From the IMG/VR virus record IMGVR_UViG_3300045988_174823: a stretch of DNA of 64,000 nucleotides, one strand, 5' to 3'. Of the stretch, positions 7,239 through 62,682 are shown piece by piece (positions within the stretch are counted from its first letter, which is position 1; every line of letters starts with the position of its first letter). The stretch is from a virus. The notes under the pieces were generated by a model. That model saw only the letters and a list, made by a program, of their open reading frames with translations, made no database searches and was not told the origin of the DNA. A program made the translations under genes and the position numbers.

Positions 7239-9268
7239 TATTTGGTAACTTTAATGTTAAGTTTCACGTTCTTTAACTTTGGGTTCTTAAACTGGCGTTT
7301 GATAGGCTTGATGAAAGCGCGGGTTGCAGGGTCCCAATCAAAGCCATCAGGAACGTGGTTGACTGTACACCGGCAATTGTGAACCACAATTCCATCGGCA
7401 ATGTAGCTTTCATCTTCGGCAACTGAAATATTGTACAATTTAGTGTACTTTTTAGATCTCGGAACTTGTTTAATGTATAAAACCTTCACACCACGCGAAA
7501 CTATTTGCCCCCGGTGATTTTTGAACAGCCGTTTCAGGCGGTTGTAAACCATATCGCCGTGGTTGTTTATCTCATCTTCAGTGAAGCGGAATGTCTCATA
7601 GCCGTAACACTCCAAAATGTCCTTATCGCGGTTGGAATCGTATTCCGGATCGTTGTGCCATTTTTCGCCGTCAGCCTCCAAAACAATCTTGAGATCGGGA
7701 ATCAGTAAATCGGGGAAATACCCCACAACATCGTTGCGGAACTTTCCGTTATTTTTCAAGAACACCCCTGTCTTAGCTTCAACTCCTAACGACTTACACA
7801 GATACTCCAACTTGCGCTCGATGAACGACCGTTTCTTACCATTGGTAGAATTAGTCTTCTTCAGCGCCTCAGCCATCCAAGGATACTCACCTTGATATTT
7901 ATCTTCGATAGCTTTTCTTGCTCTGGTGGTAAGTTTCTGACGATCGACAGCACTCATATTGGCATAACGAACAGCCATCTCTTCTTTGACTTTCTTACTC
8001 ATGTAAGAACGGAACTCTGTGTCTTGCCATTGCGAGACGCACTGTTCGCTCCGGTGACAAGCTATACACAGCCCCCTCTCCAAAAGAGTATCGCTGGCTG
8101 AAACGTATATTGGCATAAACGAACCGCATTTTTCACAACAAACACCTTCGATTGTTATCAAATCGCCTGTTTTCAATGAAGCAGCCTCTCGCCATTCACC
8201 GTTTGAAAGAATTGGATGATTTCCTGTTATACGACGCACCTTCCGTACCTTTTTACGCCCTAAAAGGTTTTTGACGGCATAATAGATGTCGTACAGGGGT
8301 TCATCCTTATGATCGTGAATAATCACTTCCGTAACAGGCCTAAACCTCCCTCGGTGAGTCAAAACCATATCCCCTTTCTTTAGAGAAGATATGTTTCTCC
8401 ATCCGTTGATGGTGTACACCTTTGTAGCCGGATTATTGAAACAATAGGGGTGCGTTGGGTCAATCGTAGGGAGCCATTCTGCCACCTTACGACCGATGTT
8501 GTTACCGTTAGCGATAAGGTCTGCCAAACGGAACAGTTTCGGTTTCGAGGTAGGGTCTTCGGGGTCTTCTAAGTACAACTCCCGGCACTTAGCGCACGCG
8601 CCTGGATAGACGTCGAAATACACTTTGGCGTCAGGACCGTGTTGCTTGAAAATACTTTCGGCACGGCCCACGTTGTAGGCTTCGTGTAGAAGGTAGTACG
8701 CAATACGCAGCCAATCGCGTCCCCAGTCTTGGGTAAGGTTTCCGAGTTCGCTGGCTATATACCGGGCTCCCTTACGGAGTTGAACAGCTTGAATGGCCTT
8801 GTCTTTTATTTGTTGACGTATTTCTGATTGTTGACGGAAATTCGATTTGAGTACAGCGTTGCGTGTTCCGGTGACGATACGATTACCAAGCGACGTGATG
8901 TCGGTATAGGCACGATTCTTGAGGTAGTTGAGCGCGTTTTCTTCCTGTTCGGTAAGCGGAACAAAGTTTCCCGATTTCAAGAACTGGAGAAACTGCTTGT
9001 AATTCATCTTCTTGGCGCGAGTGTCGCCAATTGCTTCGGCCAGTATTCCAAACAAAAAGGCGTGTTCGATGATGCCCTTTGAGTTCTTGTACTTATCGAC
9101 GTTGACCCCTGAAGCTACCAAGATATCAATTTCAGACTGCGTGAGGTAGTCCAATCCGACGTGCTTGGCAATAAAGAGATATTGCCAACGCCGGAGAATA
9201 CCGACCATGTCGTCTATTTGACGGTTGTTGAAAATCATAACTTTTCGACGTCTTTTCGGGGAATCCAT
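7238..9268 (-). CDS. MuF/SPP1 gp7-like head morphogenesis protein interrupted by an intein
   Basis: Removing residues 276-631 joins THPY to CRCTV. This restores the HPxCRC motif typical of Mu F/SPP1 gp7 family proteins. Confidence 0.7.
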   Translation of the reverse strand: MDSPKRRRKVMIFNNRQIDDMVGILRRWQYLFIAKHVGLDYLTQSEIDILVASGVNVDKYKNSKGIIEHAFLFGILAEAIGDTRAKKMNYKQFLQFLKSGNFVPLTEQEENALNYLKNRAYTDITSLGNRIVTGTRNAVLKSNFRQQSEIRQQIKDKAIQAVQLRKGARYIASELGNLTQDWGRDWLRIAYYLLHEAYNVGRAESIFKQHGPDAKVYFDVYPGACAKCRELYLEDPEDPTSKPKLFRLADLIANGNNIGRKVAEWLPTIDPTHPYCFNNPATKVYTINGWRNISSLKKGDMVLTHRGRFRPVTEVIIHDHKDEPLYDIYYAVKNLLGRKKVRKVRRITGNHPILSNGEWREAASLKTGDLITIEGVCCEKCGSFMPIYVSASDTLLERGLCIACHRSEQCVSQWQDTEFRSYMSKKVKEEMAVRYANMSAVDRQKLTTRARKAIEDKYQGEYPWMAEALKKTNSTNGKKRSFIERKLEYLCKSLGVEAKTGVFLKNNGKFRNDVVGYFPDLLIPDLKIVLEADGEKWHNDPEYDSNRDKDILECYGYETFRFTEDEINNHGDMVYNRLKRLFKNHRGQIVSRGVKVLYIKQVPRSKKYTKLYNISVAEDESYIADGIVVHNCRCTVNHVPDGFDWDPATRAFIKPIKRQFKNPKLKNVKLNIKVTK
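7376..8443 (-). mobile_element. intein (356 aa) with Zn-finger-like Cys cluster and DUF559/Vsr-like PD-(D/E)XK nuclease domain
   Basis: Starts with Cys (tgt, 8443-8441) and ends VVHN (aat, 7378-7376), followed by +1 Cys. Internal CCEKCG...CIACH cluster and PDLLIPDLKIVLEADGEKWHNDPEYDSNRDKDILECYGYETFRF. Confidence 0.7.
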
Positions 9269-12248: not shown

Positions 12249-12293
12249 TTTCCAATACAAAGGTAGTTAAATTTCTCCAAACTGCCAAGAGCG
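12249..12293 (-). promoter_or_regulatory. promoter-like repeat, copy P1 (divergent)
   Basis: Plus strand reads TTTCCAATACAAAGGTAGTTAAATTTCTCCAAACTGCCAAGAGCG. The sense strand has TACCTTTG (12265-12258), which matches TAnnTTTG, 34 nt upstream of the ATG at 12224. Confidence 0.45.
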
Positions 12294-24334: not shown

Positions 24335-27052
24335 CTAACCTAACATATCGAATTTAAATCCGGTAGTCATACGCGACGCCGCCAAGTCGGCCAGCCAAAA
24401 CGACGACGAAATATCATCGTGACTACCGACACTCTCCAGCCCTTTTTCGGTAAAGGCAACGGAACCGAGGTCTTGGAAGATGAGGTCCTTGACCTGCTGA
24501 GAATAAACGTTACCTATCGGGATGTGGATTTTGCCGCGCTCGAACAACGTCGAAAGGTGCGGCCATCCGGTCTTCAGGTCGTACTTATCAATTCCCGTAG
24601 TGTGACCAATAACGGGCATACCCTCGGTGTCGGCTGTCTCGACGAATATCTGTTGGAATGTGTTATTCTCCATCACGATAAGGTCAGGCCGGAAGCGGGA
24701 GTTGATACGGCGCAGAACGTTCATCTGCTCGAAAAACTTGGCACCTTTTTCACGGTAGAGGTGCAACAGCCAGCGCTCGTCGGTCAATTCGTCAATACCC
24801 CATACGCTAAATACGGCGTAGTCGGCGCCGACGTTGGCTGAAATAGCGAAGTCGCACCCGACAACCACTTTAGAGAACTTAATGGGGAATTCTTCGCGCG
24901 AATCAACCAACGTGTAATTTTCCATCCGCAGTAGCGAACGCGTGAGGATTTCCATCGGGAAGATTGACGACTCGTTGGTAATCGGGCGACAAAGGTTCTC
25001 ACGCGAGAAGATGATTGAACCCTGGGTCTCCTTTTTATCCATCAGGTCCTTAAACGACCAACGCTGGGGCCAAAGGATTCGTCCGTCGGGGAAGATGGCT
25101 GGATACTCGATAACGAACCAACCGTTCTTGGTCTTCAGGTCGCCGTAAAGGTCTTCGGCGTGGAACGGCGTACCGACGACGATAATCTGGCCACCAGGTA
25201 CGAGCATATTCATGATTACGGAGTGGAAATAGTCGGTGGACTTATTTCGTTGGAGACTGGAGTAAATGACGTTGTCCTTCAAGCCGTCATCTACGATAAT
25301 CCAATACGGGTGAGCACCACGCACCGACGATCCAAAACCTTTTCCCGTCAAACGTGCTCCGTTACGGCACACGATATTGGTAGCCGACCAGTTGTTGGCT
25401 GTCGATTGGGGAAACAGCCGTTCCTTCAATATCTCGTTTTCCTCAATAGTGCCTTTCAGAATCTCCAAAAGGTCCACACTCTGTTGTAACGAGAACGAGA
25501 ACAAGAATCCGCGATTTGATGAAGCTGCCGCAGGTCGTTTCGAGTAGCGGGTGGTTGACGGCTTCTTGTAACGGTATAGCTGCCACGCGGCGTAGGCGTT
25601 GGAGAAATAGAACGAGTTGTGCGTAACCGTACCGTCACCCAGCACGAAGCGGTGGTCGCCGTCGGTGGTGATAGATATGTAGTCACCTTCACCCGCGGGC
25701 GTGATCTTCAACGACGATACCACCGTAGGGTGTACGCCGTCGATAGTGCCCCAGTCCTTGTGTGACGTCTTGGCGGCCCAGTCGGTTTGGACCTTTTTAC
25801 GAGCGATCTTTACTGGGATGCGGTCCAGTTCACCAGAAATAGTCACGCACCACGACGAATAGTCGCGGCCTAACGCTTTACAATACCGCGTTCCACCACC
25901 CATTCGGGTACAGAAGCCAAGGCTGTCGGCCAAGTTCTTCACGTCACACACCAACTGGTAGTTCGTATTACCGAAGTGATAGCCGCCCTGCCAATAGTTA
26001 CCGTCGGAATCGATCAACCCAGCCAACACCTGAAGACGAACTTCTTCGCTGTTGACGAGGTACTGCTCCGGAATGTGCTTATTGTAGAGCAGGTTGTAAC
26101 CCTTGAGCATCCTTTCCAGCGGGTTACGCTTACCGCGGCCACGAACGTCAATTCCAAGTGTCACTACCATACCATTTTGGCCATAGTGAAGCCCCAAGCG
26201 CTCGGCGTAAGAGTGTAAGTACTCACACACTTCAGGGTCGGCGGTGGTGATCTTCTGGTTGTTGGAGTTGCCGTCGCCTAACCAGTACCCAAGAAAATAT
26301 GGTTCCAACCCCACGGGCCGCGTGGGGTACTGCACTGCCACCTTGAAACCGCGGTAACGTTCCTTCACCCAGTTCGGGGTCTTGCTTAAAAGCGTCGGAA
26401 TATCAATATCCACTATCCGCTTCGACGCTGTAGCGATGGAACCGTTGCGGTCCTTCTCGATCAGCGTACAAATGTGGCGTGAGTTGACGGTGTGGCTATC
26501 ACCGCGCGACTGGTCGATACGGTACATCATCGAATCGTGGCCACGGCGCGTAGCAACCACGCGGCGGGGCTTAGAGTCGATGCCCATCAACAAGTCGCCA
26601 ACCACAACGTCTTCGACCTTTTTGATAGTTCCGTCGTACATTCGGACGGGGGTTCCGACGGCTTCGCACTTTCCGTGGTCACGCGCTGCGTTGATACACA
26701 ATTTCTTGTGGTTATGGACTAATTCACCCCATTCCAGGTGGTGCCACGACAGCTGGAAGTCAGGGATAACAGAGGTGATGAAATACGTCAAGTTGGCGCA
26801 TCGTAGGGTATCTTCTACGACGGCCGAAACGTTTTCTTCGTAGCGGGGTTTGAAGTCAATCGACGCGTCACCCGTGTACATAATACGATATGTGTCCTCC
26901 AACAGAGCGTCGAATATCGTATCAACGTCGTGTATATCGCCACTCATCATCTCATTCAACCCACGCTCGTCCATACCCTCGATTATTTCATCAACGAGGT
27001 CTAAACAAGCCAAACGGTGCGTAACCGAGGGTGCTGTAATCTGAGGTATCAT
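24335..27052 (-). CDS. terL: terminase large subunit interrupted by an intein in the Walker A motif
   Basis: Removing residues 129-479 gives NAARDHGK-SFYFS (P-loop). The remaining ~550 aa have a terminase-like layout. Confidence 0.8.
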   Translation of the reverse strand: MIPQITAPSVTHRLACLDLVDEIIEGMDERGLNEMMSGDIHDVDTIFDALLEDTYRIMYTGDASIDFKPRYEENVSAVVEDTLRCANLTYFITSVIPDFQLSWHHLEWGELVHNHKKLCINAARDHGKCEAVGTPVRMYDGTIKKVEDVVVGDLLMGIDSKPRRVVATRRGHDSMMYRIDQSRGDSHTVNSRHICTLIEKDRNGSIATASKRIVDIDIPTLLSKTPNWVKERYRGFKVAVQYPTRPVGLEPYFLGYWLGDGNSNNQKITTADPEVCEYLHSYAERLGLHYGQNGMVVTLGIDVRGRGKRNPLERMLKGYNLLYNKHIPEQYLVNSEEVRLQVLAGLIDSDGNYWQGGYHFGNTNYQLVCDVKNLADSLGFCTRMGGGTRYCKALGRDYSSWCVTISGELDRIPVKIARKKVQTDWAAKTSHKDWGTIDGVHPTVVSSLKITPAGEGDYISITTDGDHRFVLGDGTVTHNSFYFSNAYAAWQLYRYKKPSTTRYSKRPAAASSNRGFLFSFSLQQSVDLLEILKGTIEENEILKERLFPQSTANNWSATNIVCRNGARLTGKGFGSSVRGAHPYWIIVDDGLKDNVIYSSLQRNKSTDYFHSVIMNMLVPGGQIIVVGTPFHAEDLYGDLKTKNGWFVIEYPAIFPDGRILWPQRWSFKDLMDKKETQGSIIFSRENLCRPITNESSIFPMEILTRSLLRMENYTLVDSREEFPIKFSKVVVGCDFAISANVGADYAVFSVWGIDELTDERWLLHLYREKGAKFFEQMNVLRRINSRFRPDLIVMENNTFQQIFVETADTEGMPVIGHTTGIDKYDLKTGWPHLSTLFERGKIHIPIGNVYSQQVKDLIFQDLGSVAFTEKGLESVGSHDDISSSFWLADLAASRMTTGFKFDMLG
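25616..26668 (-). mobile_element. intein (351 aa) with LAGLIDADG homing endonuclease
   Basis: Starts with Cys (tgc, 26668-26666) and ends VTHN (aac, 25618-25616), followed by +1 Ser. Contains LGYWLGDGNS and LAGLIDSDGNY. Confidence 0.8.
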
Positions 27053-29067: not shown

Positions 29068-29288
29068 GGGGATGGATTAAACCTTTGATTGATGGAAGTA
29101 TGTTAAATACTTTATGGTCGGGGCGATATTTCACGCCCCGTGTTCGTCGGTTGTCGTTCCTATTGGTGCTCCCCTGTGCCGGCCGGGCGAACTGCCACAA
29201 CGATGACGAACGAAATTTCTTAAAAAGCCCCTCACCCATGGACTTTCGGGCCGCGTCTGCCGCACGCGGTTTTAATTGGGGCTTCTTG

Positions 29289-29359
29289 TTGACCCGGAAG
29301 GATTCGAACCTCCAACACCGGAACCAAAATCCGATGTGTTACCATTACACCACAGGTCA
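29289..29359 (-). tRNA. tRNA-Gln: tRNA-Gln (anticodon UUG)
   Basis: Hand-folded cloverleaf. Acceptor TGACCTG/CGGGTCA (U1-A72 as in bacterial tRNA-Gln), D arm GTGT-AATGGTA-ACAC, anticodon arm TCGGA-TTTTGGT-TCCGG, T arm GGAGG-TTCGAAT-CCTTC, discriminator A. No encoded CCA. Confidence 0.85.
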
Positions 29360-29810: not shown

Positions 29811-30098
29811 CTATTTCTTAGCCTTTTTGCCGTAGGCGCGGAAACTGTACGCCGGACGGAACTGGATAGTCTTGTAGGGGTCAGTGGGGGCCGTAACACC
29901 CGTCTGCGGGTTACGTGCCATACGCGACGGTTGGTCCTTGGGGACGAACTTTCCCACCTTACCGATAGGGATGATTTCGTCCTTGTCGCGAACCTCCTCG
30001 GTGAGAATCTCTTCCAAAGCACGGACGAAAGCAATCGCCTGGGCCTTGGTAGTGCCGGCCTTGGCGGCCAAAGCACCGTAAAAATCTTGCACTTTCAT
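29811..30098 (-). CDS. hup: HU/IHF-family DNA-binding protein
   Basis: MKVQDFYGALAAKAGTTKAQAIAFVRALEEILTEEV...IPIGKVGKFVPKDQPSRMARNPQTGV...FRPA. The ATG at 30098 is chosen (track ORF extends to 30233) because it does not overlap the upstream gene. Confidence 0.8.
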   Translation of the reverse strand: MKVQDFYGALAAKAGTTKAQAIAFVRALEEILTEEVRDKDEIIPIGKVGKFVPKDQPSRMARNPQTGVTAPTDPYKTIQFRPAYSFRAYGKKAKK

Positions 30099-30136
30099 TG
30101 TACGATAATTTTGATTGTTGATAAATATGGGGTTTG

Positions 30137-30616
30137 TTAAACCTTTGTCGAAGCGATGGTAATTCCTAATTCTACCAGCTGTGAACGTAACGAATTCCAA
30201 GCAGCGTCGCGGGCTTCGGGGTTTATCCACCATTCGGAGAAATTATCACCTTCCGCAGCCATAGTGTCGTGGTTAAGGACGATGCCGTATTCGAAGCGTT
30301 GTTGTGAGTCGTTATATCGATCTACGCGGACTATCGACCGGATGGCGTACCACGGGACCACGACATCGCCCAACTCAATAAACACGCCATTCAAGCGTTT
30401 TTTATTCGTCGCTTCGTCAGCGTGACCCAGGAAGTCGGTTAACGACATATCGTAATCTGGACCATCGTCGGCGTTGCGTTCGGCGTCATACGGCCGTGCC
30501 TTTACCGTCGCGGGCTTATCACCAAATAGCGGCAGGCCATTGGCGCCGCGAGGTATCTTATGAGCCTTTTCAGGCGGCTGTTTTTCGTCAATTTTCGACG
30601 TGCGGACCTTTACCAT
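30137..30616 (-). CDS. hypothetical protein
   Basis: 159-aa ORF with an ATG start. Confidence 0.5.
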   Translation of the reverse strand: MVKVRTSKIDEKQPPEKAHKIPRGANGLPLFGDKPATVKARPYDAERNADDGPDYDMSLTDFLGHADEATNKKRLNGVFIELGDVVVPWYAIRSIVRVDRYNDSQQRFEYGIVLNHDTMAAEGDNFSEWWINPEARDAAWNSLRSQLVELGITIASTKV

Positions 30617-31539: not shown

Positions 31540-31803
31540 TTACCACTGGACCATCATCCGGAAATAGGCGAAATATTTCCTTGTGCGGTTCAGGCCCACA
31601 GTTTCGGTTTTGTAAACTTCATCTATCGTTACTTCGTAACCTTGTTTCTTCAAACGCTGAGCAACGTATTTCAACCTGTTGCCGTTGGCGTCTTCGTTGA
31701 AGAATTCGCGTTTCCCCCTGGCGATAGCGCGTTGGATTCCAAACTCTACGTCAGCCAATGCCAATTCGTAAATCCAATTCCCCAGCCAAAAGATCTTCGG
31801 CAA
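31540..31803 (-). CDS. hypothetical protein (start uncertain, TTG in track)
   Basis: 87-aa ORF overlapping the upstream ORF by 53 nt. Confidence 0.35.
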   Translation of the reverse strand: MPKIFWLGNWIYELALADVEFGIQRAIARGKREFFNEDANGNRLKYVAQRLKKQGYEVTIDEVYKTETVGLNRTRKYFAYFRMMVQW

Positions 31804-31954
31804 TTTCGTAATTCAGGTGGCGCTGGGCCAAGGTGGTAAGTTTACGAGCCTGGGCGGCGGTGAGTATGGGACGGAATTGCTTGTTATCGAGTTGTACGCT
31901 GGGTGTTTGCTGTTGGCGTTCCATTTCGTGATTTTTGAGGTTTTCAACACTCAT
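31751..31954 (-). CDS. hypothetical protein, first gene after the non-coding hub
   Basis: 67-aa ORF with its ATG at 31954. Confidence 0.45.
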   Translation of the reverse strand: MSVENLKNHEMERQQQTPSVQLDNKQFRPILTAAQARKLTTLAQRHLNYEIAEDLLAGELDLRIGIG

Positions 31955-31977
31955 AACGTTGGCGATGTCTTACGCTG

Positions 31978-32074
31978 GTGTGTACGCGTGTGTACGCTGG
32001 CGTGTGGGGTGCTTGGCGGCTTGCTTCTCTCGCGCGCGCGTATGTCCACACGTGTACGCGCTTGCACGCGCGTG
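31978..32074. repeat. cluster of alternating purine-pyrimidine tracts and GTGTACGC repeats
   Basis: Uninterrupted alternating Pu/Py runs at 31978-31997 (20 nt), 32031-32045 (15 nt, including (CG)5), 32047-32061 (15 nt) and 32063-32074 (12 nt). GTGTACGC(G/T) occurs three times. Confidence 0.8.
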
Positions 32075-32084
32075 AGGCCCCAAA

Positions 32085-32116
32085 GTGTAGAGAGAAGTGT
32101 TTTTTTCTCTCTACAC
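32085..32116. repeat. perfect 12-bp inverted repeat (hairpin)
   Basis: GTGTAGAGAGAA (32085-32096), 8-nt loop, TTCTCTCTACAC (32105-32116). Confidence 0.85.
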
Positions 32117-32254
32117 CGGGTATTGGGGTAAAGGAGGGGGGGATTATAGGGGGGAAGGATAGGGAAGGTTAGGAAGTAAGGGGGTGTGGGGGGAGAGAAA
32201 CCTGCAGGAAGGGGAAGTAAGGGGGGAAGAAAGGGGAGGAGGAGAAGGGGGAAA
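32117..32254 (+). repeat. polypurine / G-run tract (G-quadruplex or triplex-prone)
   Basis: No C on the plus strand across 32117-32199 or 32207-32254. Eleven runs of G3-G7. Terminal pure-purine block of ~35 nt. Confidence 0.85.
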
Positions 32255-32444
32255 CCGCCAAAAGGGCGAAAATCTCTCTAAAAAACGAGAAAAATCTCAA
32301 CGACAGAAAATCGTCAAAACCAAAAACTGCCAAAGGGTGAAAACCGTCAAGAAAATCTTACAAGAAGAGCGAAACTGCCAAGACAGTCAATCAGGAAATC
32401 GCCAACAGCGAAAACCATCAACAGTCGTACAGCCCTCTTGGCAG
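32251..32444. promoter_or_regulatory. iteron-like array: about 10 imperfect direct repeats GAAA(A)yCGyCAA plus one inverted CTCTTGGCAG
   Basis: Copies start near 32251, 32268, 32289, 32306, 32322, 32339, 32351, 32371, 32395 and 32410, spaced 12-24 nt. An inverted copy lies at 32435-32444. The words CTGCCAAGA and AAATCGCCAACAG recur in promoter-like repeats P1 and P4. Confidence 0.6.
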
Positions 32445-32642
32445 CCAGGCGAAGGATGAAAGACGTCGCTGGAATGTCGTGGTCGGTGCTGGTGAGGCGT
32501 TACAGCCGAGGTGAACGTGTAACATCGTTCAACATGTCGCTGCGAGGTCGTTAAGACGTTAACGCGATTTTAGACCATTTGACGAACTATCTATCCTCAG
32601 GGGACCCCGGTGTACCGGAAAAGCATTTTGCGCAGTCAAACG

Positions 32643-32680
32643 AAAAGAAAAAGGGCCAATACAACAATTTGCATTGACCC
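32643..32680 (-). terminator. Rho-independent terminator after ORF 32706-33704
   Basis: Sense strand GGGTCAAT-(12 nt)-ATTGGCCC (8 bp, one G-U) followed by TTTTTCTTTT. Confidence 0.7.
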
Positions 32681-32705
32681 TCTACAGACGCAAATAGCCT
32701 ACGTG

Positions 32706-33704
32706 TTACGATACAGGCTTTTCGTCGGCTTTCAACACAGCTTCAGCATCAGCGACCTTGTCGTCCAGGTCCGTCACCTGAGGCTCGCTACCATCGGTGG
32801 GGACGTCAATACGCTTCAGCCCTACCTTGGACCCCAGCTCACGACCTAACATCGCAGCCAACGCCGCCATGGGGTTATCCTGGGAAGCGAAAGTGGGTTG
32901 TTCCTCTTCGTCAGGGTCAGGGATACCGTGTTCGCGACGAAAAGCCTCCGACTGAGTACGAAAACGTGCGTGGTACTCTTGTTGAATGCCGTCAGGATTG
33001 GTACGGAGCCAACCCTCATCAGCCAGCGTGGCCAACAGCGGTACGTTGAAAGCGACCAGTTTCTCTACCAGGAACGTACCAACGCCAAACACGTTGACCA
33101 ATAGCACACCGTCGGTGCGGCGATACGTAGCGCCCATCAGGTCCTGATCTACCAACACGAACTGACCGTAGAGTTCGCGCGGATTGGTAGTGGGGACGTG
33201 TTGAGCAATTTTCTCCACACCGATGCCGCAGTGGCCGTAACGTTCGTTGACGATCTCCAGTATCGTACGCTCGATAACGCGCCACTCCTCGTCCAGCACC
33301 GGGCCGTATTTTTCGATAGCCTTGGCGCCAAGGGCGGTGAAGTAAAGCGCATCGTCGTCAGGGCAGAACTCCATCAATCCGGCGTCGGTACATTCGTGCG
33401 ACAAACGCTTGATTTCGCTGACGACCGTGGCGCCATCGCTGATAGGTATCACCGCCCTAAACGCCAGGTTGTTATCCAGGAACGTTCCCAGCCACTGACG
33501 AATTTCGCCGTAACGCGGAGCAGCCTCAGCTACGTCAGTGAAAGGCAGCGGACCCTCATCCACACGGATGATACTCGGGCGGTCGGCAGCAGCGTTGGCC
33601 GCAGCGTACAGGAACAGGACCTGAGTCTTGGTGATACGCGCTTCGTCGTTGATAGGTAACGCCTCCTGGGCGTTGAACACGGTGGTAATTACGTTTGTTT
33701 CCAT
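32706..33704 (-). CDS. hypothetical acidic protein
   Basis: 332-aa ORF with an ATG start, followed by a terminator. Confidence 0.55.
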   Translation of the reverse strand: METNVITTVFNAQEALPINDEARITKTQVLFLYAAANAAADRPSIIRVDEGPLPFTDVAEAAPRYGEIRQWLGTFLDNNLAFRAVIPISDGATVVSEIKRLSHECTDAGLMEFCPDDDALYFTALGAKAIEKYGPVLDEEWRVIERTILEIVNERYGHCGIGVEKIAQHVPTTNPRELYGQFVLVDQDLMGATYRRTDGVLLVNVFGVGTFLVEKLVAFNVPLLATLADEGWLRTNPDGIQQEYHARFRTQSEAFRREHGIPDPDEEEQPTFASQDNPMAALAAMLGRELGSKVGLKRIDVPTDGSEPQVTDLDDKVADAEAVLKADEKPVS

Positions 33705-35799: not shown

Positions 35800-35889
35800 T
35801 TTTCCAAGAGCGAAGGTACGGCGAATTTCCCAAACCGCCAAGAGAATCTTGAAAATTTTTCTATTTTTACGAAGATTTTTCCAAGACCC
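35800..35889 (-). promoter_or_regulatory. promoter-like repeat, copy P3
   Basis: Plus strand reads TTTTCCAAGAGCGAAGGTACGGCGAATTTCCCAAACCGCCAAGAGAATCTTGAAAATTTTTC...TTTTTCCAAGACCC. The sense-strand TACCTTCG box (35818-35811) lies 36 nt upstream of the ATG at 35775. Confidence 0.5.
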
Positions 35890-39091: not shown

Positions 39092-39188
39092 TTTTCCAAG
39101 AGCGAAGGTAGTGTAAATCTCCAAGACTTCAAAGAGAATCGCGAAAAATCTTCCAAGAAAAGTGAATTATTTCGTAAATCGCCAACAG
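39092..39188 (-). promoter_or_regulatory. promoter-like repeat, copy P4
   Basis: Plus strand reads TTTTCCAAGAGCGAAGGTAGTGTAAATCTCCAAGACTTCAAAGAGAATCGCGAAAAATCTTCCAAGAAAAG...AAATCGCCAACAG. Confidence 0.5.
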
Positions 39189-49044: not shown

Positions 49045-49896
49045 CTATAAGATAATAACGTTGGTGCGAATCATACCCTTGAACCACCCATCAGGTACGG
49101 GAACTCCCTTTGGTAAACGTTTATTTTTCAATCCATTATTAATCCATACAAATTTCGTTCCGGTTAGCGGATGTGGATGGGTAGAATAGTATTTCTTCAT
49201 CCGTTCCGACACCACATTTTTATGTTTACTATAATATTTCTTGTTAGCTTCAGAAATTTTGCGTTTAGTATCATCCGACATTGCGCCTCGTACACGCCCT
49301 GACATAATTTCCGAATGTCTTCTTTTCCATTCTTCGGTGTGATGTTTACCGCGCAACGCCTCGGCAACTTTGTTTATGTGCTCTTGAGTCTTTTTCTTTC
49401 CTCTTAACGCTTTCGATATCTTTTCGCGGTGTTCTGCAGTGATAATTCTCCCGATAAGAGATTGGGACTTCTTGGCTTTTGACTCTTCTGATTGCTTAAT
49501 TCCTGTCATCCGAATCCTTATTGCTTCTCGCGCTGCTGGAGAAGATAACCTCCGTTTAGCGGCGATTGACATTTTACACTTAACCTCAGGAATTTTAGCC
49601 GGGTTTACTTGACCAAACATATTCGATGAACCCGGAAGGATGTTATATCCTATGTCCTTTTCAGTCGAGTGCAGCTTCTTGATGTAAAGCATCTCCCAAG
49701 CATCCAACTGAGGTTGTGTGTCGCAAATACGGAGCGTTTCACGCTTGAAATTCTCAGGGCCGTAATGTCTAACAGCTAAGAGCAAGTTCCTTCCGCTTCC
49801 CAAATACCCGTCGAATTCGTCAGATTCACAAACGTGTTAACCGATGTAAATCTTGCCGTTGACGAGGTTCGTAGTTTTGTAAATTATACCGTACAT
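49045..49896 (-). pseudogene. free-standing GIY-YIG homing endonuclease gene with an in-frame TAA at codon 20
   Basis: MYGIIYKTTNLVNGKIYIG*HVCESDEFDGYLGSG.... The TAA at 49839-49837 replaces the CAA found in the paralog at 59772. The rest of the frame stays open (NUMOD-like C-terminus). The first 32 nt are identical to copy 2. Confidence 0.75.
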
Positions 49897-56976: not shown

Positions 56977-59022
56977 CTATTGTAATATCTCTAACCTTGT
57001 AGATTGTGAAGACTGTACGGTCTTCTTTCCAGCGAAATAATTCACACGCCCTGAAACAGCCACAATACGGTTCAACAGCGTAGCTTCGTTTTCCGGCTGA
57101 TGAAGCCAAAAGTCAGGCCACAACGTAATCTGGATGATGAGGTCGTTGACCTCCACTTGCAGTACACCGTAAGAATCGCCACCTTTGGTTTGACGTTCGA
57201 ATACGTTATTCGCACGACCAACGATACAAACCTCGTCGCCCTCGTGTTTACGCTCAAACTCGGCGGCGGTAACGTACAGCCGAACCATCCGTTTTCCGAG
57301 TCCGTATTCGTTCATCATACGTTCGTAGTCCACCTCGCCGTACCCGGTTAATTCACGCTGTTTGAAGACCCACCAGGCGTTAGTGTGAGCATCAGGCGAA
57401 GTGAATTCGTCGGAAAGCGGTTCACCGCGGCGTTCGAGATATTGCTTGACGATATCCAGACGCTGACGAGGATTGCGTATGTCTTCTACCAGATCGAACG
57501 CTCCAGCCATAATAAGACGCAACACCACAGTACGGTTTATGCCTTTAGGGGCAGAAGTTATGAAGTCCTCAAACGAGAACACTTCGCCGTGTTCATCTTT
57601 CATGGCTTTCAATAGCGTCAACGCCCGCTCGCCTACTCCCTTGACCTTACCCAGCGAAAAGAAGATACGGTTCGTCTTGGGGTCGCACGTAAAGGTTTCA
57701 CCCGAGAAATTGATATCCGGCGGACGGACCTCAATTTCGGCCCCGGTTTTCTTCATCTCCACCAAGCGATACGGGATATCGGACTCCTTCGAGGCGTACT
57801 GAAGCGACGTCGTCCAGAACTCCAGCGGGTAGTTAACCTTAAACCACTGTGACCAGTACGACATCATGGTATAGGCCACGGCGTGCGACTTGTTGAAGCC
57901 GTACCCTGAAAAGGCCAGCAGTTTGCTCCAAACCTCATCAGCCCGCGCTTCAGGTTTCTCAGTCAACCCGCGTTCGCGCAACAAGGTCGCGTATCCGGCA
58001 CGGAACTTATCGTGAAACGACTCGATAAGGTCCATATTTTTCTTCTTGATGGCGGTACGCAGGATATCGGATTCCACTGGACTCAGACCGCCTACAACGA
58101 CGGCTTTCATTATCTGCTCCTGGTAGGTATAGAGCGAATAGGTGTCGCGCGTTATTTCCTCCATACCGGGGTCGAATTTAGGCTTCCGGGCGCCATTCTT
58201 AATTTCAACGAACGTTTCGTGCGCCTTAACATCCATAGGACCCGGACGGAACAACGCCGTCATAGCGATAAGGTCGTCCAGGCTATGCGGTTTGGCCTCG
58301 CGGCAGTAGTTCATCAACCCCATAGCGCCAAACTGGAACACATCCTCGCACCAACCGCGCTGGAAATACCGGAATACCTCCTCGTCGTTGAACGGGATGG
58401 TGTTGACGTCGATTTGCTCCTTGCGGTTCTTGGCGATAAGTTTCAGAATAGATGAAAATTTATCCAGCTGGTTGAGACCTAAAATATCCTCTTTCAAGAA
58501 CCCTGACTTGTCGATATACTTACCCTCCCACTCGGAGACCAGCACACCACCCATGCGTTTCATAGGCATCCACCCGTAAAGGTCGATGGGGTTTCCGTCT
58601 TCGTCTTTCCGGGGTACGATGATAACGGCCGACGGATGAACTGAACCCGTCTTACACTGCGTAAGGGCGTATTTCGTCATGTGCACCAACTCCGGATGGT
58701 CCTGGACGAAACGGAACAATTCCCGCGACGTAGCGGCGTAGTTGAACAGGTCGCCCCACGTGTATTCTATCTGGTCGTCAATGTCCTTGGTGAGTTTATT
58801 CATCACCGCAAACGGCACGCCCATAACCTTACCAAAGTCCTTCAAACAGGTTTTCAGTTTCATGCGTGTGTACGTACCCACGGAGCAAACGTGGTCAACG
58901 CCGTAACGACGAGCCATGTACTCCTTTACCGTATCGCGGAACGCCACCGGGAAGTCGCAATCCACGTCCGGCATGCTGTCCTGACGAGCAACTTCAATCT
59001 TTTTTATTTTTAGAATTCTCAT
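56977..59022 (-). CDS. dnaE: DNA polymerase III alpha (DnaE-type), C-terminal piece starting at the catalytic PDxDxDF motif
   Basis: MRILKIKKIEVARQD-SMPDVDCDF, FRPGPMD and GYGFNKSHAVAYTMMSYWSQWFKVNYPLEFW. Its ATG (59022-59020) overlaps the endonuclease TGA as ATGA. Confidence 0.85.
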   Translation of the reverse strand: MRILKIKKIEVARQDSMPDVDCDFPVAFRDTVKEYMARRYGVDHVCSVGTYTRMKLKTCLKDFGKVMGVPFAVMNKLTKDIDDQIEYTWGDLFNYAATSRELFRFVQDHPELVHMTKYALTQCKTGSVHPSAVIIVPRKDEDGNPIDLYGWMPMKRMGGVLVSEWEGKYIDKSGFLKEDILGLNQLDKFSSILKLIAKNRKEQIDVNTIPFNDEEVFRYFQRGWCEDVFQFGAMGLMNYCREAKPHSLDDLIAMTALFRPGPMDVKAHETFVEIKNGARKPKFDPGMEEITRDTYSLYTYQEQIMKAVVVGGLSPVESDILRTAIKKKNMDLIESFHDKFRAGYATLLRERGLTEKPEARADEVWSKLLAFSGYGFNKSHAVAYTMMSYWSQWFKVNYPLEFWTTSLQYASKESDIPYRLVEMKKTGAEIEVRPPDINFSGETFTCDPKTNRIFFSLGKVKGVGERALTLLKAMKDEHGEVFSFEDFITSAPKGINRTVVLRLIMAGAFDLVEDIRNPRQRLDIVKQYLERRGEPLSDEFTSPDAHTNAWWVFKQRELTGYGEVDYERMMNEYGLGKRMVRLYVTAAEFERKHEGDEVCIVGRANNVFERQTKGGDSYGVLQVEVNDLIIQITLWPDFWLHQPENEATLLNRIVAVSGRVNYFAGKKTVQSSQSTRLEILQ

Positions 59023-59772
59023 TTCTTTCTCGGTTTCATTCCATGCCAAAATCCATCGGGGAGAGAGGCGTCCTTGCAAATAGTAGCGTTTATTTCGCCG
59101 TTAGTTATCCTAACTTTGCCTTGCATAGGGTTCGTGTATCCACGTTCATACCTATCGCGTAATTTCTTTCCAAAATCTTTTCGCCGCTCCTCGGGCCAGC
59201 GATTATGCCAGTTAGGGTTATTTTCACCCTTGTATCGCCCTTTCATTTTAGCCGACAAATTTGCCTTTTGTTCAGCCGTCCATCGGTTGCCGTAGTTTGG
59301 ATTCTTTTCGCCTATGTATCGCCCTTTTAAGGTCTTCGAAATTTTTTTTCTTATAATCAGTATTATCTAAAGCAATTTGACGTTTTTGATGAATTTGCTT
59401 CATTAATTCTGGATGATTCTTGAATGTCTTTTTAAGCGACCGTGAAACTTTCAAAGCAACCTCTGGAATCAACATGGGTGAGCCGCTTCCAAACTTATTA
59501 GCCGTACCCGATAAGATATTGTAGCCAATCCTCTTATTGGTTGAATTGAGTTTCTTGATGTATAGCATTCCCCAGGCGTCGAGTTGTAACTGGGTATCGC
59601 ATACGCGGAGCGTTTCACGCTTGAAGTTCTCAGGTCCGTAATGTTTAACCGCGTTCGTCAAAGATACACCACTACCCAAATACCCGTCAAACTCGTCAGA
59701 TTCGCAAACATGTTGGCCGATATAAATCTTGCCGTTAATTAGGTTCGTAGTTTTGTAAATTATACCGTACAT
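59019..59772 (-). mobile_element. GIY-YIG homing endonuclease gene inserted in dnaE, split into two frames at an A8 run
   Basis: ORF 59272-59772 has GIIY...KIYIG. The NUMOD3-like repeats (GEKNPNYG, GENNPNWH) continue in the frame of ORF 59019-59258, open from 59366. The frames meet at sense-strand A8 (plus T8 at 59342-59349), and A7 would give one ORF. Confidence 0.75.
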
Positions 59773-61464: not shown

Positions 61465-62682
61465 TTACAGGAGTTTATTGATTTCTGCGTTAGAAAACCT
61501 TGCCGCGAAGAAATTGCGAGCCAACATCAGGTAGTCCCACTTTTCTTCAACGGATACGGTCCCTGTGATACGGTCCATCAGCACAAAGCACGACTTCAGC
61601 AACGAATCACGGTCATCCTTATAGGCACCAATATTTCGCTTGTAGAAGACGTACACCTTCAACATCTGGTAAACTACCCAGAAATAGGTTGATTTCTCAA
61701 ATACGTAGTTCTCAAACCCGGCCTCGTCTTCCAAGATATTGCCTTTTGCGTATCGCACCGCCAAACGATTTATCATCTCTTCCATAAAGGCCGTTATTTC
61801 ACACAGGCGGTTTACCGGAACCTCCGATTCGAACTTAAAGTCCATCATATACGACATCGCTCCCTCGTAATACAAGCTGCGGCGCGTATTATTGGACACG
61901 AAAAGTTCGCTCATCTGCTCGGCGATATTATTCCATTCGTAGATATGGAGCGACTGCGAGTTGTGAGTCTGAACACCTAACTCTACCCCCAAGCAGAGGG
62001 ACATTACCTCCGTCAGGAACGAGAACTGAAAGATGTTCGTTGGTAAGCCCCAGTGGAGATCATTCGAACGGTTCTGGACCGTGGTAACGAGTTTCCCATC
62101 GCGGATTTTCAACATCACCATATCGTTACACGGCAAGTCCTTCGATTTCACGCCGAGGTCAAACTTAGGATTCCAAATCGACATCACAACCTGACGTGTT
62201 TCCGGGTCAGTGCTCAGCAGGCGAATGGCTTCCTTCACCTGATCCAGGCCCGGGTCCATCGACTCACCCTCGGACGAAATACCCCAATGACGCAAACGCC
62301 AGCCGTAGGGAGCGTGGAACGTAACGCCATTATCGGAAAAATCGACCATCTTGCCGTTGAAGATCTTCAGGAACTCGACGTCCTTACGGCCCGTAACTAT
62401 CCACATAGCTTCAGCCAGCAGGAAGAAGATGTTGATGTTGCGGGCATAGCCGCCTACACAGCGGCGATACGGGTTGTTGATTATTGTCTTGACATCGAGC
62501 AGTTCGCGTACCTTACCAGCACGAGAATCCTGAAGCGGGAGCGTCGTCATCATCGTGCGGTTGATATACGGATACACCTCGGCGAACGAACCGCGCGGAT
62601 CGGTAAATACCACACGCCGCCGATAGTCAAACTCAAAACGGCTAATGCCTGTTTCGGTCTGGGAAATTGATTCTTGCTTCAT
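61465..62682 (-). CDS. thymidylate synthase-family enzyme (ThyA or dUMP hydroxymethylase) with ~130-aa C-terminal extension
   Basis: Motifs TRQVVMSIWNPKFDL, DLPCNDMVMLKI, VQNRSNDLHWGLPTNIFQFSFL and SLHIYE. Confidence 0.8.
   Translation of the reverse strand: MKQESISQTETGISRFEFDYRRRVVFTDPRGSFAEVYPYINRTMMTTLPLQDSRAGKVRELLDVKTIINNPYRRCVGGYARNINIFFLLAEAMWIVTGRKDVEFLKIFNGKMVDFSDNGVTFHAPYGWRLRHWGISSEGESMDPGLDQVKEAIRLLSTDPETRQVVMSIWNPKFDLGVKSKDLPCNDMVMLKIRDGKLVTTVQNRSNDLHWGLPTNIFQFSFLTEVMSLCLGVELGVQTHNSQSLHIYEWNNIAEQMSELFVSNNTRRSLYYEGAMSYMMDFKFESEVPVNRLCEITAFMEEMINRLAVRYAKGNILEDEAGFENYVFEKSTYFWVVYQMLKVYVFYKRNIGAYKDDRDSLLKSCFVLMDRITGTVSVEEKWDYLMLARNFFAARFSNAEINKLL

What the first reader, a model, noticed from the sequence alone, without database searches (positions are those of the whole stretch)
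32251..32444. Iteron-like array sharing sequence words with a dispersed promoter-like repeat
About ten imperfect direct repeats of GAAA(A)yCGyCAA start near 32251, 32268, 32289, 32306, 32322, 32339, 32351, 32371, 32395 and 32410, spaced 12-24 nt apart. An inverted CTCTTGGCAG lies at 32435-32444. The words CTGCCAAGA(G) and AAATCGCCAACAG recur in promoter-like repeats P1 (12281-12293) and P4 (39176-39188). CCAAGAG(A) occurs two or three times in each of P2-P4. This looks like a binding-site family for one sequence-specific protein, clustered here (origin or titration site) and dispersed at promoters.
Basis: seen in the sequence. Interest (0 to 1): 0.75.

Follow-up and report, generated by a model that had tools for sequence, protein, structure and literature searches.

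The report
Phage replication-origin repeats with C-tract core
The repeat array is real and is most likely the initiator-binding part of a phage replication origin, next to a C-rich "C5-TATAAT-C5" DNA core that recurs beside or inside replication-initiator genes of many unrelated phages and prophages and that I could not find described.

Summary
There are 10-11 imperfect GAAAAYCGYCAA units (TTGRCRRTTTYC on the gene strand) at 32250-32424, and the quoted words recur at promoter regions P1, P3 and P4 above chance.

The array is one block of a 750-nt non-coding module (31955-32705). The blocks, in gene-strand order, are:
- a terminator;
- the array;
- a 125-nt homopyrimidine C-tract run ending in C6-TATAAT-C7;
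- a covarying hairpin;
- alternating purine/pyrimidine GC-rich repeats;
- an inverted unit copy.

Relatives keep this order but carry 2-11 units.

The order [quoted passage not shown] recurs in at least 27 non-redundant phage and prophage lineages from several phyla. There it lies inside or next to replication-initiator genes (lambda-O-like, DnaD-like, replisome organizer). It is read in both open frames or is non-coding, so the constraint acts on the DNA.

Best reading, with confidence about 0.6, is an iteron-type origin with an unusual structure-prone core. No experiment supports it. There is no AT-rich unwinding region, no GC-skew turn and no recognisable initiator gene next to it. Binding of the same protein at the promoters is plausible but untested.

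The parts
32640..32683 (-). Intrinsic terminator ending the upstream (replication-gene) operon
   Evidence: stem-loop 32683->32650 followed by TTCTTTTCGT. Relatives have different terminator hairpins at the same place.
32595..32618 (-). Conserved box CCGGTACACC..N..CCTGAGG upstream of the array
   Evidence: Read. GGTACACC...TCACCTGAG is kept in the L001, L007, L016, L018 and L019 groups. Function unknown.
32250..32424 (-). Iteron-like array: 10-11 units TTGRCRRTTTYC (GAAAAYCGYCAA on the + strand), mean spacing 16 nt
   Evidence: Unit number varies among relatives: about 10 here, 6-7 in the L001 group, about 4 in the L007 group, 2-3 in the L009 group.
32435..32444 (+). Inverted word CTCTTGGCAG at the distal edge of the array
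32130..32255 (-). Homopyrimidine (gene strand) / homopurine (+ strand) tract. Nine G-runs of at least 4 on the + strand. Contains sub-motifs C4TTTCTTC6 (starts 32236) and C6ACAC5 (starts 32193).
   Evidence: + strand composition A43 C4 G68 T11. The sub-motifs are unique in the window and in the same order as in other lineages.
32136..32154 (-). C6-TATAAT-C7 core (exact CCCCCTATAATCCCCC at 32153->32138)
   Evidence: Conserved in relatives; the L007 group has CCCCTATATCCCC. The same 16-mer occurs in more than 120 viral and 82 bacterial loci.
32085..32116 (+). Hairpin H1: 12-bp stem, 8-nt loop (AAARACAC on the gene strand, GTGTYTTT on the + strand)
   Evidence: I3, 100% complementary; folding z-score -5; 7 of 14 pairs have compensatory changes across 8 variants, with 93% standard pairs on the gene strand against 100% on the + strand.
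31960..32075 (.). Alternating purine/pyrimidine GC-rich repeats (GTGTACGC, CGCGCGCGCG)
   Evidence: D2, D5, D8. Folding is no better than shuffled sequence. GCGCGCG-type runs follow the core in several other lineages.
31958..31969 (+). Single inverted copy of the array unit (GTTGGCGATGTC), abutting the start codon of the next gene
   Evidence: I4, and I1 nearby. CGCCAACGTTAT is conserved in all relatives.
32706..33704 (-). 332-aa protein encoded directly upstream: candidate array-binding protein
   Evidence: No family match. The structure model is weak (pLDDT 53), but residues about 60-125 fold as helix-helix-helix-strand-strand. Foldseek hits are non-significant (E>0.6) and mostly winged-helix DNA binders, with a few unrelated proteins.
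31540..31954 (-). Downstream gene, intact (176 aa) in L001 but frameshifted here at a T-run. Alternative candidate binder or initiator.
   Evidence: No family match.
12277..12291 (-). Dispersed unit-like site at -33 of promoter P1 (CTCTTGGCAGTTTGG)
   Evidence: 14.7 bits.
35830..35844 (-). Dispersed unit-like site at -33 of promoter P3 (CTCTTGGCGGTTTGG)
   Evidence: 15.9 bits.
39174..39188 (-). Dispersed unit-like site (CTGTTGGCGATTTAC) just after a terminator and 56 nt upstream of the P4 -33 element
   Evidence: 16.7 bits.

Best explanation
The array is the iteron block of a free-standing, non-coding replication origin. The phage has a genome of about 98 kb, promoters of the Bacteroidota type and a DNA-hypermodification gene set.

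Proposed mechanism:
1. A phage DNA-binding protein oligomerises on the 10-11 TTGRCRRTTTYC units. Candidates are the adjacent 332-aa protein with a predicted winged helix, or the downstream gene product.
2. The resulting strain is taken up by the adjacent structure-prone core. This is a 125-nt homopurine/homopyrimidine C-tract run ending in C6-TATAAT-C7, which takes the place of a classical AT-rich unwinding element. It could open as H-DNA, i-motif or G-quadruplex, with TATAAT as the only easily melted spot.
3. The purine/G-rich + strand folds into hairpin H1, which has a conserved loop. H1 then serves as a loading or priming signal, so that synthesis runs in the direction of the genes.
4. Single unit-like sites at P1, P3 and P4 tie the same protein to transcription, through autoregulation or titration.

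Shown: the anatomy, its conservation, the hairpin covariation, and the link between this architecture and initiator genes elsewhere.
Inferred: every binding, unwinding and priming step.
For: Array and module anatomy.

Relatives (15 IMG/VR loci plus 4 contigs) keep the module order but vary the unit number from 2 to 11. They exchange left and right halves by recombination.

The exact core 16-mer occurs in more than 120 viral loci. With a C5 run 3-30 nt upstream it occurs in 82 bacterial loci. For that pattern I calculate about 8 expected by chance in 596 Gb of uniform composition.

Among these, 27 non-redundant lineages share an upstream C-tract run.
- 15 of 26 have at least 3 copies of a lineage-specific 9-mer in -260..-50, against 18% of 851 control windows (binomial P 9e-6).
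- 7 of 26 have at least 4 copies, against 2.4% of controls (P 2e-6).

In other phages the element sits inside or next to genes annotated as replication initiators, or whose neighbours are replication genes.
- L040 and L096: O-like replication initiation.
- L053, phrog_270; L035, replisome organizer followed by a DnaC-like loader; L112; and L027 and L063, 750-900 nt downstream of an O-like (L027) or phrog_15768 (L063) gene followed by a DnaB-like helicase gene.
- Of 10 prophage ORFs tested, 5 are replication-initiation, primosomal or DnaD-like. Three more are phrog_15768, the class found just upstream of DnaB in L063.

The motif is read as PYNPP or as PPIIPP in different initiators, including homologues L053 and L083. 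It is non-coding in the window family.

In an unbiased set of L053 homologues (57-100% protein identity), 20 of 20 that span the linker keep the exact 16-mer and the C-tract pattern. The N-terminal domain and the repeats in front of the core differ from lineage to lineage.

H1: 7 of 14 pairs are compensatory and the loop is conserved.

Sub-motifs C4TTTCTTC6, C6ACAC5 and C5TATAATC5 are unique in the window and in the same order as elsewhere.

The upstream genes are a replication block: DNA polymerase, SF1 helicase, SbcCD and RecA.
Against: Nothing here is experimental.

There is no AT-rich unwinding region. The tract next to the array is 57% G+C.

Cumulative GC skew shows no turn at 32 kb. All genes point one way, so this argues only against bidirectional initiation.

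The flanking proteins match no initiator family. The winged-helix call rests on a low-confidence model.

No DnaB-type helicase or primase family appeared among the 25 Pfam families listed of the 28 found in the window.

Beyond the 16-mer, similarity of the window tract to a profile of the other lineages is not significant after composition correction (E 0.65).

The units resemble promoter -33 halves, so the binder may be transcriptional.

Many contigs break inside this element. That could point to DNA ends.

In the L053 family the core is on average no better conserved than the C-terminal coding DNA (0.92 against 0.90). Part of its conservation is therefore mosaic inheritance.
Confidence: 0.6

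Rival explanations
1. Transcription-control region. The units are -33-type promoter halves, bound by RNA polymerase/sigma or by a phage activator or repressor. The cluster acts as a decoy or titration site, or as an enhancer. Alternatively, TATAAT is the -10 box of a promoter that drives the downstream block, or a primer RNA as at T4 oriF/oriG.
For: - Units share TTGGCRGTTT with the -33 regions of P1 and P3.
- In relatives, the P3 -33 word also occurs as an array unit.
- The upstream operon ends in a terminator, so the downstream genes need a promoter somewhere in this gap.
- TATAAT is the canonical sigma-70 -10 hexamer.
- The phage has T4-like recombination and replication genes: RecA, an SF1 helicase, SbcCD.
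Against: - No unit is followed by a -7 box TAnnTTTG.
- No -35/-10 pair lies at TATAAT.
- The phage's own four strong promoters are of the Bacteroidota type, not TATAAT.
- This reading does not explain why the same core sits inside initiator genes in Alphaproteobacteria, Clostridia and Bacteroidota prophages.
Confidence: 0.17
2. Genome-end or segregation signal. The module would be a pac/cos site with repeated small-terminase binding sites, or a centromere-like site bound by the adjacent winged-helix protein.
For: - Contigs of several lineages end inside the element: L016; L031, L039, L072, L098, L101, plus Nextera adapter sequence abutting it in L069 and L124; and 5 of 22 L053-family loci.
- Weak Foldseek hits include the centromere-binding protein TubR.
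Against: - The terminase is 5 kb away, at 24335-27052.
- Most relatives' contigs run straight through the element.
- The contig breaks are more simply explained. A core of about 150 nt is shared at 84-100% identity by co-occurring mosaic phages whose N-terminal flanks differ, and such repeats break assemblies.
- In other phages the element lies inside initiator ORFs.
- No ParA or TubZ family is among the Pfam families listed.
Confidence: 0.07
3. RNA element. The region would be a structured non-coding RNA or long 5' leader (H1 and, in relatives, H2/H3), preceded by a C/U-rich unstructured stretch acting as a Rho-loading site or a protein sponge.
For: - H1 covaries like an RNA helix.
- H2 in relatives shows paired changes: CCAGAGAGAC/GTCTCTCTGG, CGGGAGAC/GTCTCCCG and CGAGGAAC/GTTCCTCG.
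- The tract is C-rich and G-poor on the gene strand.
Against: - No Rfam family matches even at E<=1.
- The mismatches in H1 are A.C on the gene strand and G.U only on the antisense strand, where no promoter is evident.
- H2 is absent from the window and from L003.
- This reading does not explain the link to initiator genes.
Confidence: 0.09
4. Functionless relic. The region would be a decayed remnant of an initiator gene's proline-rich linker and repeats, expanded by slippage.
For: - In one frame the tract reads ...LPPYNPP..., like the linkers of initiators elsewhere.
- Unit number and tract length vary freely among relatives.
Against: - The core 16-mer, the H1 loop and H1 pairing are maintained across the family through compensatory changes.
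- The module order is kept in relatives whose flanking protein has diverged to 58% identity.
Confidence: 0.05

Closest known systems
Lambda ori within gene O, and SPP1 oriL within gene 38 (iteron origins embedded in the initiator or replisome-organizer gene). From my own knowledge of these systems.
   Same: Direct repeats next to an unwinding region. In the other lineages found here, the repeats and core lie in the inter-domain linker of O-like, DnaD-like or replisome-organizer genes, next to DnaB/DnaC-like genes.
   Different: In the window the element is intergenic and no neighbour is a recognisable initiator. The region next to the repeats is a G+C-rich homopurine/homopyrimidine C-tract run ending in C5-TATAAT-C5, not an AT-rich stretch. 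Unit spacing is irregular, about 16 nt.
Iteron plasmids and the P1 incA titration array (own knowledge)
   Same: Many tandem initiator sites plus single or inverted copies at a promoter or gene start, used for autoregulation or titration. Here an inverted copy lies at 31958-31969, with single sites at P1, P3 and P4.
   Different: No Rep-family protein, no DnaA boxes, and a lytic-type 98-kb phage context. Titration is untested.
T4 oriF/oriG (promoter plus downstream unwinding element, R-loop primed) and ColE1 RNA II (own knowledge)
   Same: An origin built from promoter-like words next to a strand-asymmetric unwinding region. The phage carries RecA-, Dda- and SbcCD-like genes.
   Different: No complete promoter was found in the array. 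Gene-sense transcription would give pyrimidine-rich RNA, which forms weak R-loops.
Intrastrand triplex / H-DNA motifs in bacterial genomes (Holder et al. 2015, PMC4666352)
   Same: C-run, loop, C-run (and, in a second context, N3-6 then a G-run) is the block pattern of a C-C-G intrastrand triplex. Such G/C-rich motifs are multi-copy in cyanobacteria and enterobacteria.
   Different: The stems here are 5 nt, below that study's 6-nt minimum. That paper found its motif not associated with phages and did not link it to origins. No structure was measured here.
Single-strand origins and priming hairpins (sso of rolling-circle plasmids, G4-type ssi signals) (own knowledge)
   Same: H1 has a conserved loop and a freely covarying stem, with a strand preference.
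   Different: There is no sequence similarity to known sso/ssi classes. The strand preference rests on 7 alignment cells from about 2-3 independent changes.

Membership tests
Iteron-type phage/plasmid replication origin | Cluster of at least 3 direct repeats of one 10-22 nt unit | tested here: met
   10-11 units at 32250-32424. 6 matches fall within 172 nt against about 0.2 expected.
Iteron-type phage/plasmid replication origin | Adjacent AT-rich DNA-unwinding element | tested here: not met
   The adjacent 125 nt are 57% G+C and 88% purine on one strand. Only the TATAAT hexamer is AT-rich.
Iteron-type phage/plasmid replication origin | Linked gene for a recognisable initiator (Rep, O, DnaD-like) | tested here: inconclusive
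   Neighbours match no Pfam, PHROG or NCBIfam family. The 332-aa protein has a predicted winged-helix segment, but the model is weak.
Iteron-type phage/plasmid replication origin | Initiator binding and origin activity | not testable with these tools
   Needs EMSA or footprinting, plasmid replication assays, and marker-frequency analysis.
Iteron-type phage/plasmid replication origin | Strand-composition (GC-skew) turn at the site. Supportive, not defining. | tested here: not met
   Cumulative skew falls steadily across 1-64 kb, with only a local bump at 31-33 kb.
Repeats / C-tract / C5-TATAAT-C5 element (class defined here from 27 lineages) | Exact CCCCCTATAATCCCCC on the strand of the replication genes | tested here: met
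   32153->32138 on the minus strand, unique in the window.
Repeats / C-tract / C5-TATAAT-C5 element (class defined here from 27 lineages) | At least 60 nt of pyrimidine-rich C-tract run directly upstream, with C-run/TTKYTT/C-run sub-motifs | tested here: met
   C4TTTCTTC6 and C6ACAC5 lie upstream, in the same order as elsewhere. The first type occurs in 19 of 27 lineages. The profile match is not significant after bias correction (E 0.65).
Repeats / C-tract / C5-TATAAT-C5 element (class defined here from 27 lineages) | Lineage-specific direct repeats upstream of the tract | tested here: met
   The window array meets this. In the class, 15 of 26 lineages have at least 3 copies, against 18% of controls.
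Repeats / C-tract / C5-TATAAT-C5 element (class defined here from 27 lineages) | Lies inside or beside an annotated replication-initiator gene | tested here: inconclusive
   True elsewhere. Here it lies at the end of the replication-gene block, but the immediate neighbours are unannotated.
Bacteroidota-type promoter (TTG-N17-21-TAnnTTYG) | -33 TTG with a -7 box at the right spacing | tested here: not met
   The pattern finds P1-P4 and four other minus-strand sites, but nothing in 31955-32705.
Sigma-70-type promoter at TATAAT | -35-like hexamer 16-18 nt upstream of the -10 hexamer | tested here: not met
   The scan of 31700-32900 reports no site at 32143-32148.
Described RNA families (Rfam 15) | Covariance-model match | tested here: not met
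   At gathering thresholds only tRNA-Gln is found in the window. There are no hits with E<=1 in 31850-32800.
pac/cos packaging site | Next to or inside the terminase genes, with genome ends mapping there | tested here: inconclusive
   The terminase is 5 kb away. Some contigs end in the element but most do not. Ends cannot be mapped without reads.

The most novel reading that the evidence does not exclude
The C-tract run ending in C5-TATAAT-C5 is a widespread origin core that works at the DNA level. It would be a structure-prone element (H-DNA, i-motif or G-quadruplex) that replaces the AT-rich unwinding region. It combines with interchangeable, lineage-specific iterons and initiator N-terminal domains in phages and prophages of Bacteroidota, Clostridia, Alphaproteobacteria and Planctomycetota. 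The window would hold a free-standing, expanded version of it, with a strand-specific priming hairpin.
Probability: 0.35. Interest if true: 0.85.

Novelty: new variant of a known kind. Interest (0 to 1): 0.68.

Why it matters
If this is right, it gives a sequence signature that locates replication origins in many uncultured phages and prophages, and that marks the joint where initiator specificity modules are swapped. It also points to an origin-opening mechanism that relies on a G+C-rich homopurine/homopyrimidine tract with one TATAAT hexamer, not on an AT-rich stretch. That mechanism can be tested directly with permanganate or S1 probing and with motif mutants in any cultivable phage whose O-like or DnaD-like gene carries the motif. 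For this phage, it identifies the likely origin and two candidate origin-binding proteins in a genome where nearly all nearby genes are unannotated.

Tried and rejected
- **DNA and protein similarity to deposited phages:** blastn of the region and tblastn of the 332-aa protein found nothing.
- **Coding potential:** all three gene-strand frames of the gap contain stops. The open stretches are not conserved among relatives. The 91-aa + strand ORF at 32184-32459 lies in a region whose unit number and tract length differ among relatives. I rejected a protein-coding reading.
- **Rfam:** searched at gathering thresholds and leniently, with no hit.
- **Sigma-70 scan:** only a weak site inside the upstream gene end.
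- **Long-range pairing of GGTACACC (about 32610) with GGTGTA (about 32118):** rejected, because the L007 group changes one side only.
- **GC-rich repeat region as a structured element:** folding is no better than shuffled sequence.
- **Structure prediction of the 332-aa protein:** the model is low confidence and no Foldseek hit is significant.
- **Profile (nhmmer) test of homology between the window tract and other lineages:** the only window hits are in the tract, but E is 0.65 upstream, and the downstream model gave only non-significant hits (E 7-8) elsewhere in the window.
- **Protein-level origin of the 16-mer (a PYNPP peptide):** rejected, because it is read in two frames and also occurs in non-coding DNA.
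- **Literature search for the motif or the peptide:** nothing relevant. Two keyword searches found no description of such an origin core.
- **Automatic alignment of H1 variants:** MAFFT placed the two arms out of register. I re-registered them by hand with N padding, so the pair counts lean towards the structure I drew.
Full report
**1. The observation**

The window has genes on the minus strand only. The finding lies in a 750-nt gap (31955-32705). The gap separates a 332-aa ORF (32706-33704) from a short ORF that starts at 31954.

On the gene strand the unit reads TTGRCRRTTTYC. Seven units are good, three are degenerate, and an eleventh weak one lies near 32391. Spacing is 10-22 nt, mean 16.

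Six of the 76 window-wide matches to GAAAAYCGYCAA (up to 2 mismatches) fall within 172 nt. I calculate about 0.2 expected there, Poisson P about 1e-7.

The inverted CTCTTGGCAG, the P1 copy of CTGCCAAGAG and the exact 13-mer shared with the P4 region are all present.

**2. The promoter-like repeats**

P1-P4 are four strongly conserved sites on the gene strand at 12288, 22074, 35841 and 39132. Their form is (a/g)ATTCTCTTGG-N19-TACCTTYG-CTCTTGGAAAA, followed 20-30 nt later by an ATG.

From my own knowledge, this is the Bacteroidota promoter form (-33 TTG, -7 TAnnTTTG). It suggests a Bacteroidota host.

A position weight matrix from seven ungapped array units gives 27 hits of at least 11 bits outside the array, against 9.4 +/- 3.0 in simulated sequence. 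Three of the five best outside hits lie in the P1, P3 and P4 gaps, on the array's strand. At P1 and P3 they coincide with the -33 element.

In relatives, the -33 word of the P3-equivalent promoter changes: TTGGCGG, TTGGCTG or TTGTAGA. The same words turn up among the array units of those lineages. The shared vocabulary is therefore real.

No array unit has a -7 box at promoter spacing.

**3. The array is one block of a larger module**

On the gene strand the gap reads, in order:
- an intrinsic terminator (32683->32650);
- a conserved GGTACACC...CCTGAGG box;
- the array;
- a 125-nt homopyrimidine tract (+ strand A43 C4 G68 T11, with nine G-runs of at least 4), ending in C6-TATAAT-C7 (exact CCCCCTATAATCCCCC at 32153->32138);
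- a perfect 12-bp hairpin H1 (32116->32085);
- alternating purine/pyrimidine GC-rich GCGTACAC / CGCGCGCG repeats;
- an inverted copy of the unit abutting the next start codon.

None of this is coding. All frames carry stops, and the open stretches differ among relatives. No Rfam family matches.

**4. Relatives**

The 332-aa protein has relatives on contigs mostly of about 95-100 kb, with identity down to 58%. Their gaps keep the same block order.

Three things vary:
- Unit number ranges from 2-3 (L009 group) to 10-11 (window).
- Tract length varies.
- A second hairpin, H2, is present or absent.

Left and right halves recombine. L019 joins an L001-like left half to an L009-like right half. Conservation across the family therefore cannot be read simply as purifying selection.

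H1 is the exception. Across eight variants, 7 of 14 pairs carry compensatory changes and the loop AAARACAC is kept. All departures from pairing are A.C on the gene strand and G.T on the + strand: 93.1% against 100% standard pairs. I registered this alignment by hand, and the strand bias rests on only two or three independent changes. It is suggestive and no more.

**5. The same architecture elsewhere**

The exact 16-mer occurs in more than 120 IMG/VR loci. With a C5 run 3-30 nt upstream it occurs in 82 loci of bacterial genomes from many phyla. For that pattern I calculate about 8 expected in 596 Gb of uniform composition.

Two contexts recur.

*Context 1: repeats, C-tract run, then the 16-mer.* Lineage-specific direct repeats are followed by a pyrimidine run of about 60-70 nt made of C-tracts, and then by the 16-mer.
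- There are 27 non-redundant lineages.
- 15 of 26 have at least 3 copies of a 9-mer in -260..-50, against 18% of 851 control windows (P 9e-6). 7 of 26 have at least 4 copies, against 2.4% (P 2e-6).
- The sub-motif C-run/TTKYTT/C-run is present in 19 of 27. It occurs once in the window, in the same order as C6ACAC5 and the core.

*Context 2: repeats, AT-rich spacer, the 16-mer, N3-6, then GGGGG.* This lies inside O-like initiator genes.

**6. Link to replication initiators**

ORFs that contain the element, or lie next to it, are annotated as follows.
- Replication initiation O-like: L040, L096.
- Replication initiation protein: L053, L112.
- Replisome organizer followed by a DnaC-like loader: L035.
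- The element follows an O-like (L027) or phrog_15768 (L063) gene and then a DnaB-like helicase gene.

Of ten prophage ORFs from Alphaproteobacteria, Clostridia and Bacteroidota:
- five are replication-initiation, primosomal or DnaD-like;
- three belong to phrog_15768, the class found just upstream of DnaB in L063;
- one shares the N-terminal family of L040;
- one shows no family.

From my own knowledge, this is where lambda and SPP1 keep their origins: inside the initiator gene, in the inter-domain linker.

**7. The constraint acts on DNA, not on protein**

The 16-mer has two open frames, and both are used. PYNPP and PPIIPP occur in different initiators, including the homologues L053 and L083. 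In the window family it is non-coding.

I fetched homologues of the L053 initiator by protein similarity alone (57-100% identity). All 20 that span the linker keep the exact 16-mer and the C-run pattern, through indels that shift the frame. The sequence just upstream of the core, where the direct repeats lie in this class, differs from lineage to lineage.

A caveat applies. In that family mean pairwise DNA identity is 0.68 for the N-terminal part, 0.92 for the core and 0.90 for the C-terminal part. The three segments reassort, so the core is also a mosaic joint. Its conservation is not on average above that of the folded domain.

**8. What it most likely is**

Taken together, the array is best read as the iteron block of a replication origin whose core belongs to this class. 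It sits at the end of the replication-gene block: split DNA polymerase, SF1 helicase, SbcCD, RecA and an exonuclease.

The adjacent 332-aa protein has a predicted helix-helix-helix-strand-strand segment. Its weak Foldseek neighbours are mostly winged-helix DNA binders. It is therefore a candidate binder, but the model is poor and no hit is significant. The downstream gene is the alternative candidate.

The mechanism I propose is inference from anatomy. A protein binds the iterons. The homopurine/homopyrimidine-TATAAT core opens. The G-rich + strand folds, with H1 as a priming or loading signal, and synthesis runs co-directionally with the genes.

**9. What argues against it**

- There is no AT-rich unwinding region.
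- There is no GC-skew turn.
- There is no recognisable initiator, DnaB or primase nearby.
- Similarity beyond the 16-mer is not significant after composition correction.
- The units look like promoter halves.
- Contigs of several lineages break inside the element.

I attribute the contig breaks to assembly. A core of about 150 nt is shared at 84-100% identity by co-occurring mosaic phages whose N-terminal flanks differ. Physical DNA ends are not excluded.

**10. Comparison with what is known**

The module works like an iteron origin of the lambda-O / SPP1-gene-38 kind. The inverted copy and the dispersed single sites also recall iteron-plasmid autoregulation and P1 incA titration. It fails the AT-rich-region criterion and the linked-initiator criterion, so I do not file it as a plain member of that kind.

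The C-run/loop/C-run pattern matches the block layout of intrastrand triplex motifs described in bacterial genomes (PMC4666352). The stems here are shorter than that study's minimum. That paper also reports no association of its motif with phages.

I found no description of the core in the searchable literature. That is absence of evidence only.

**11. Verdict**

The origin interpretation is supported by comparative evidence, with confidence about 0.6. The idea of one shared binding protein is plausible but untested.

The wider finding is a C-tract / C5-TATAAT-C5 core that recurs with interchangeable repeats at initiator genes across phyla. This is the most interesting part and deserves an experiment.

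Noticed in passing
window 61465-62682 (thymidylate-synthase-like); other genes not located: The phage carries a DNA-hypermodification gene set. It includes a 5-hmdU DNA kinase (E 4.5e-52), two TET-associated glycosyltransferases, radical SAM+SPASM, dUTPase, a dCTP-deaminase-like protein and an HD/YfbR-like 5'-deoxynucleotidase. A phage HU at 29811-30233 recalls SPO1 TF1. Modified thymines could matter for the strongly strand-asymmetric origin region.
   Followed up: partly
window 24335-27052: The large terminase subunit (905 aa) carries an intein with Hint and LAGLIDADG homing-endonuclease domains.
   Followed up: no
window 56977-61463 and 49045-49803: The DNA polymerase is split into two ORFs (59760-61463 and 56977-59079) by a SegE-like GIY-YIG endonuclease ORF (59272-59772). 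A second endonuclease-like ORF, with a NUMOD3 motif, lies at 49045-49803.
   Followed up: partly
window 12288, 22074, 35841, 39132 (minus strand): There are four near-identical Bacteroidota-type promoters, ATTCTCTTGG-N19-TACCTTYG-CTCTTGGAAAA. Conservation extends well beyond the -33 and -7 boxes, including a second CTCTTGG at about +1.
   Followed up: partly
window 31751-31954 and 31540-31803: The gene just downstream of the origin region is intact in L001 (176 aa). Here it is broken by one extra T in a T-run (CTTTTGG against CTTTGG). This is either a sequencing error or a real frameshift.
   Followed up: partly
L194, L196-L200, L202-L203, L205-L207, L211, L220-L221, L225-L228, L231-L232, L234-L235, L237, L241-L245, L252, L256, L258, L261, L268-L269 (bacterial genomes): A short multi-copy element, CCCCCTATAATCCCCC-N3-6-GGGGGAT(A), occurs many times per genome. 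It contains the hairpin ATCCCCC/GGGGGAT and has a C-C-G triplex-like layout. It appears in 10 loci of one uncultured bacterium, in 5 loci of a Xenococcaceae cyanobacterium, and in several Bacteroidaceae and Prevotella MAGs. It is either intergenic or forms tandem coding repeats (APYNPPVGDE). Its relation to the origin core is unclear.
   Followed up: partly
L016 (end of contig), L031, L039, L069, L072, L098, L101, L124, L284, L285, L290, L292, L293: Contigs of several unrelated lineages begin or end inside the C-tract/TATAAT element. Two have Nextera adapter sequence abutting it. This is probably an assembly break at a shared repeat or low-complexity stretch. DNA ends are not excluded.
   Followed up: partly
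L019 against L001 and L009 (gap region): Recombination joints fall inside the non-coding module. L019 combines an L001-type terminator and array with an L009-type core, hairpins and downstream gene, although its 332-aa protein is only 58% identical to the window's. In the L053 family the N-terminal part, the core and the C-terminal part reassort independently.
   Followed up: partly
No sigma family is among the 25 Pfam families listed of the 28 found in the window.
   Followed up: partly
window 29288-29359: A tRNA-Gln (anticodon TTG) lies on the gene strand, between the HU gene and the exonuclease gene.
   Followed up: no
L001 about 7370-7425, and equivalents in L009, L017, L018: A second hairpin, H2, shows paired changes: CCAGAGAGAC/GTCTCTCTGG, CGGGAGAC/GTCTCCCG and CGAGGAAC/GTTCCTCG. 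A small GCGCAC-N4-GTGCGC hairpin follows H1 in most relatives. Both are absent from the window and from L003.
   Followed up: no
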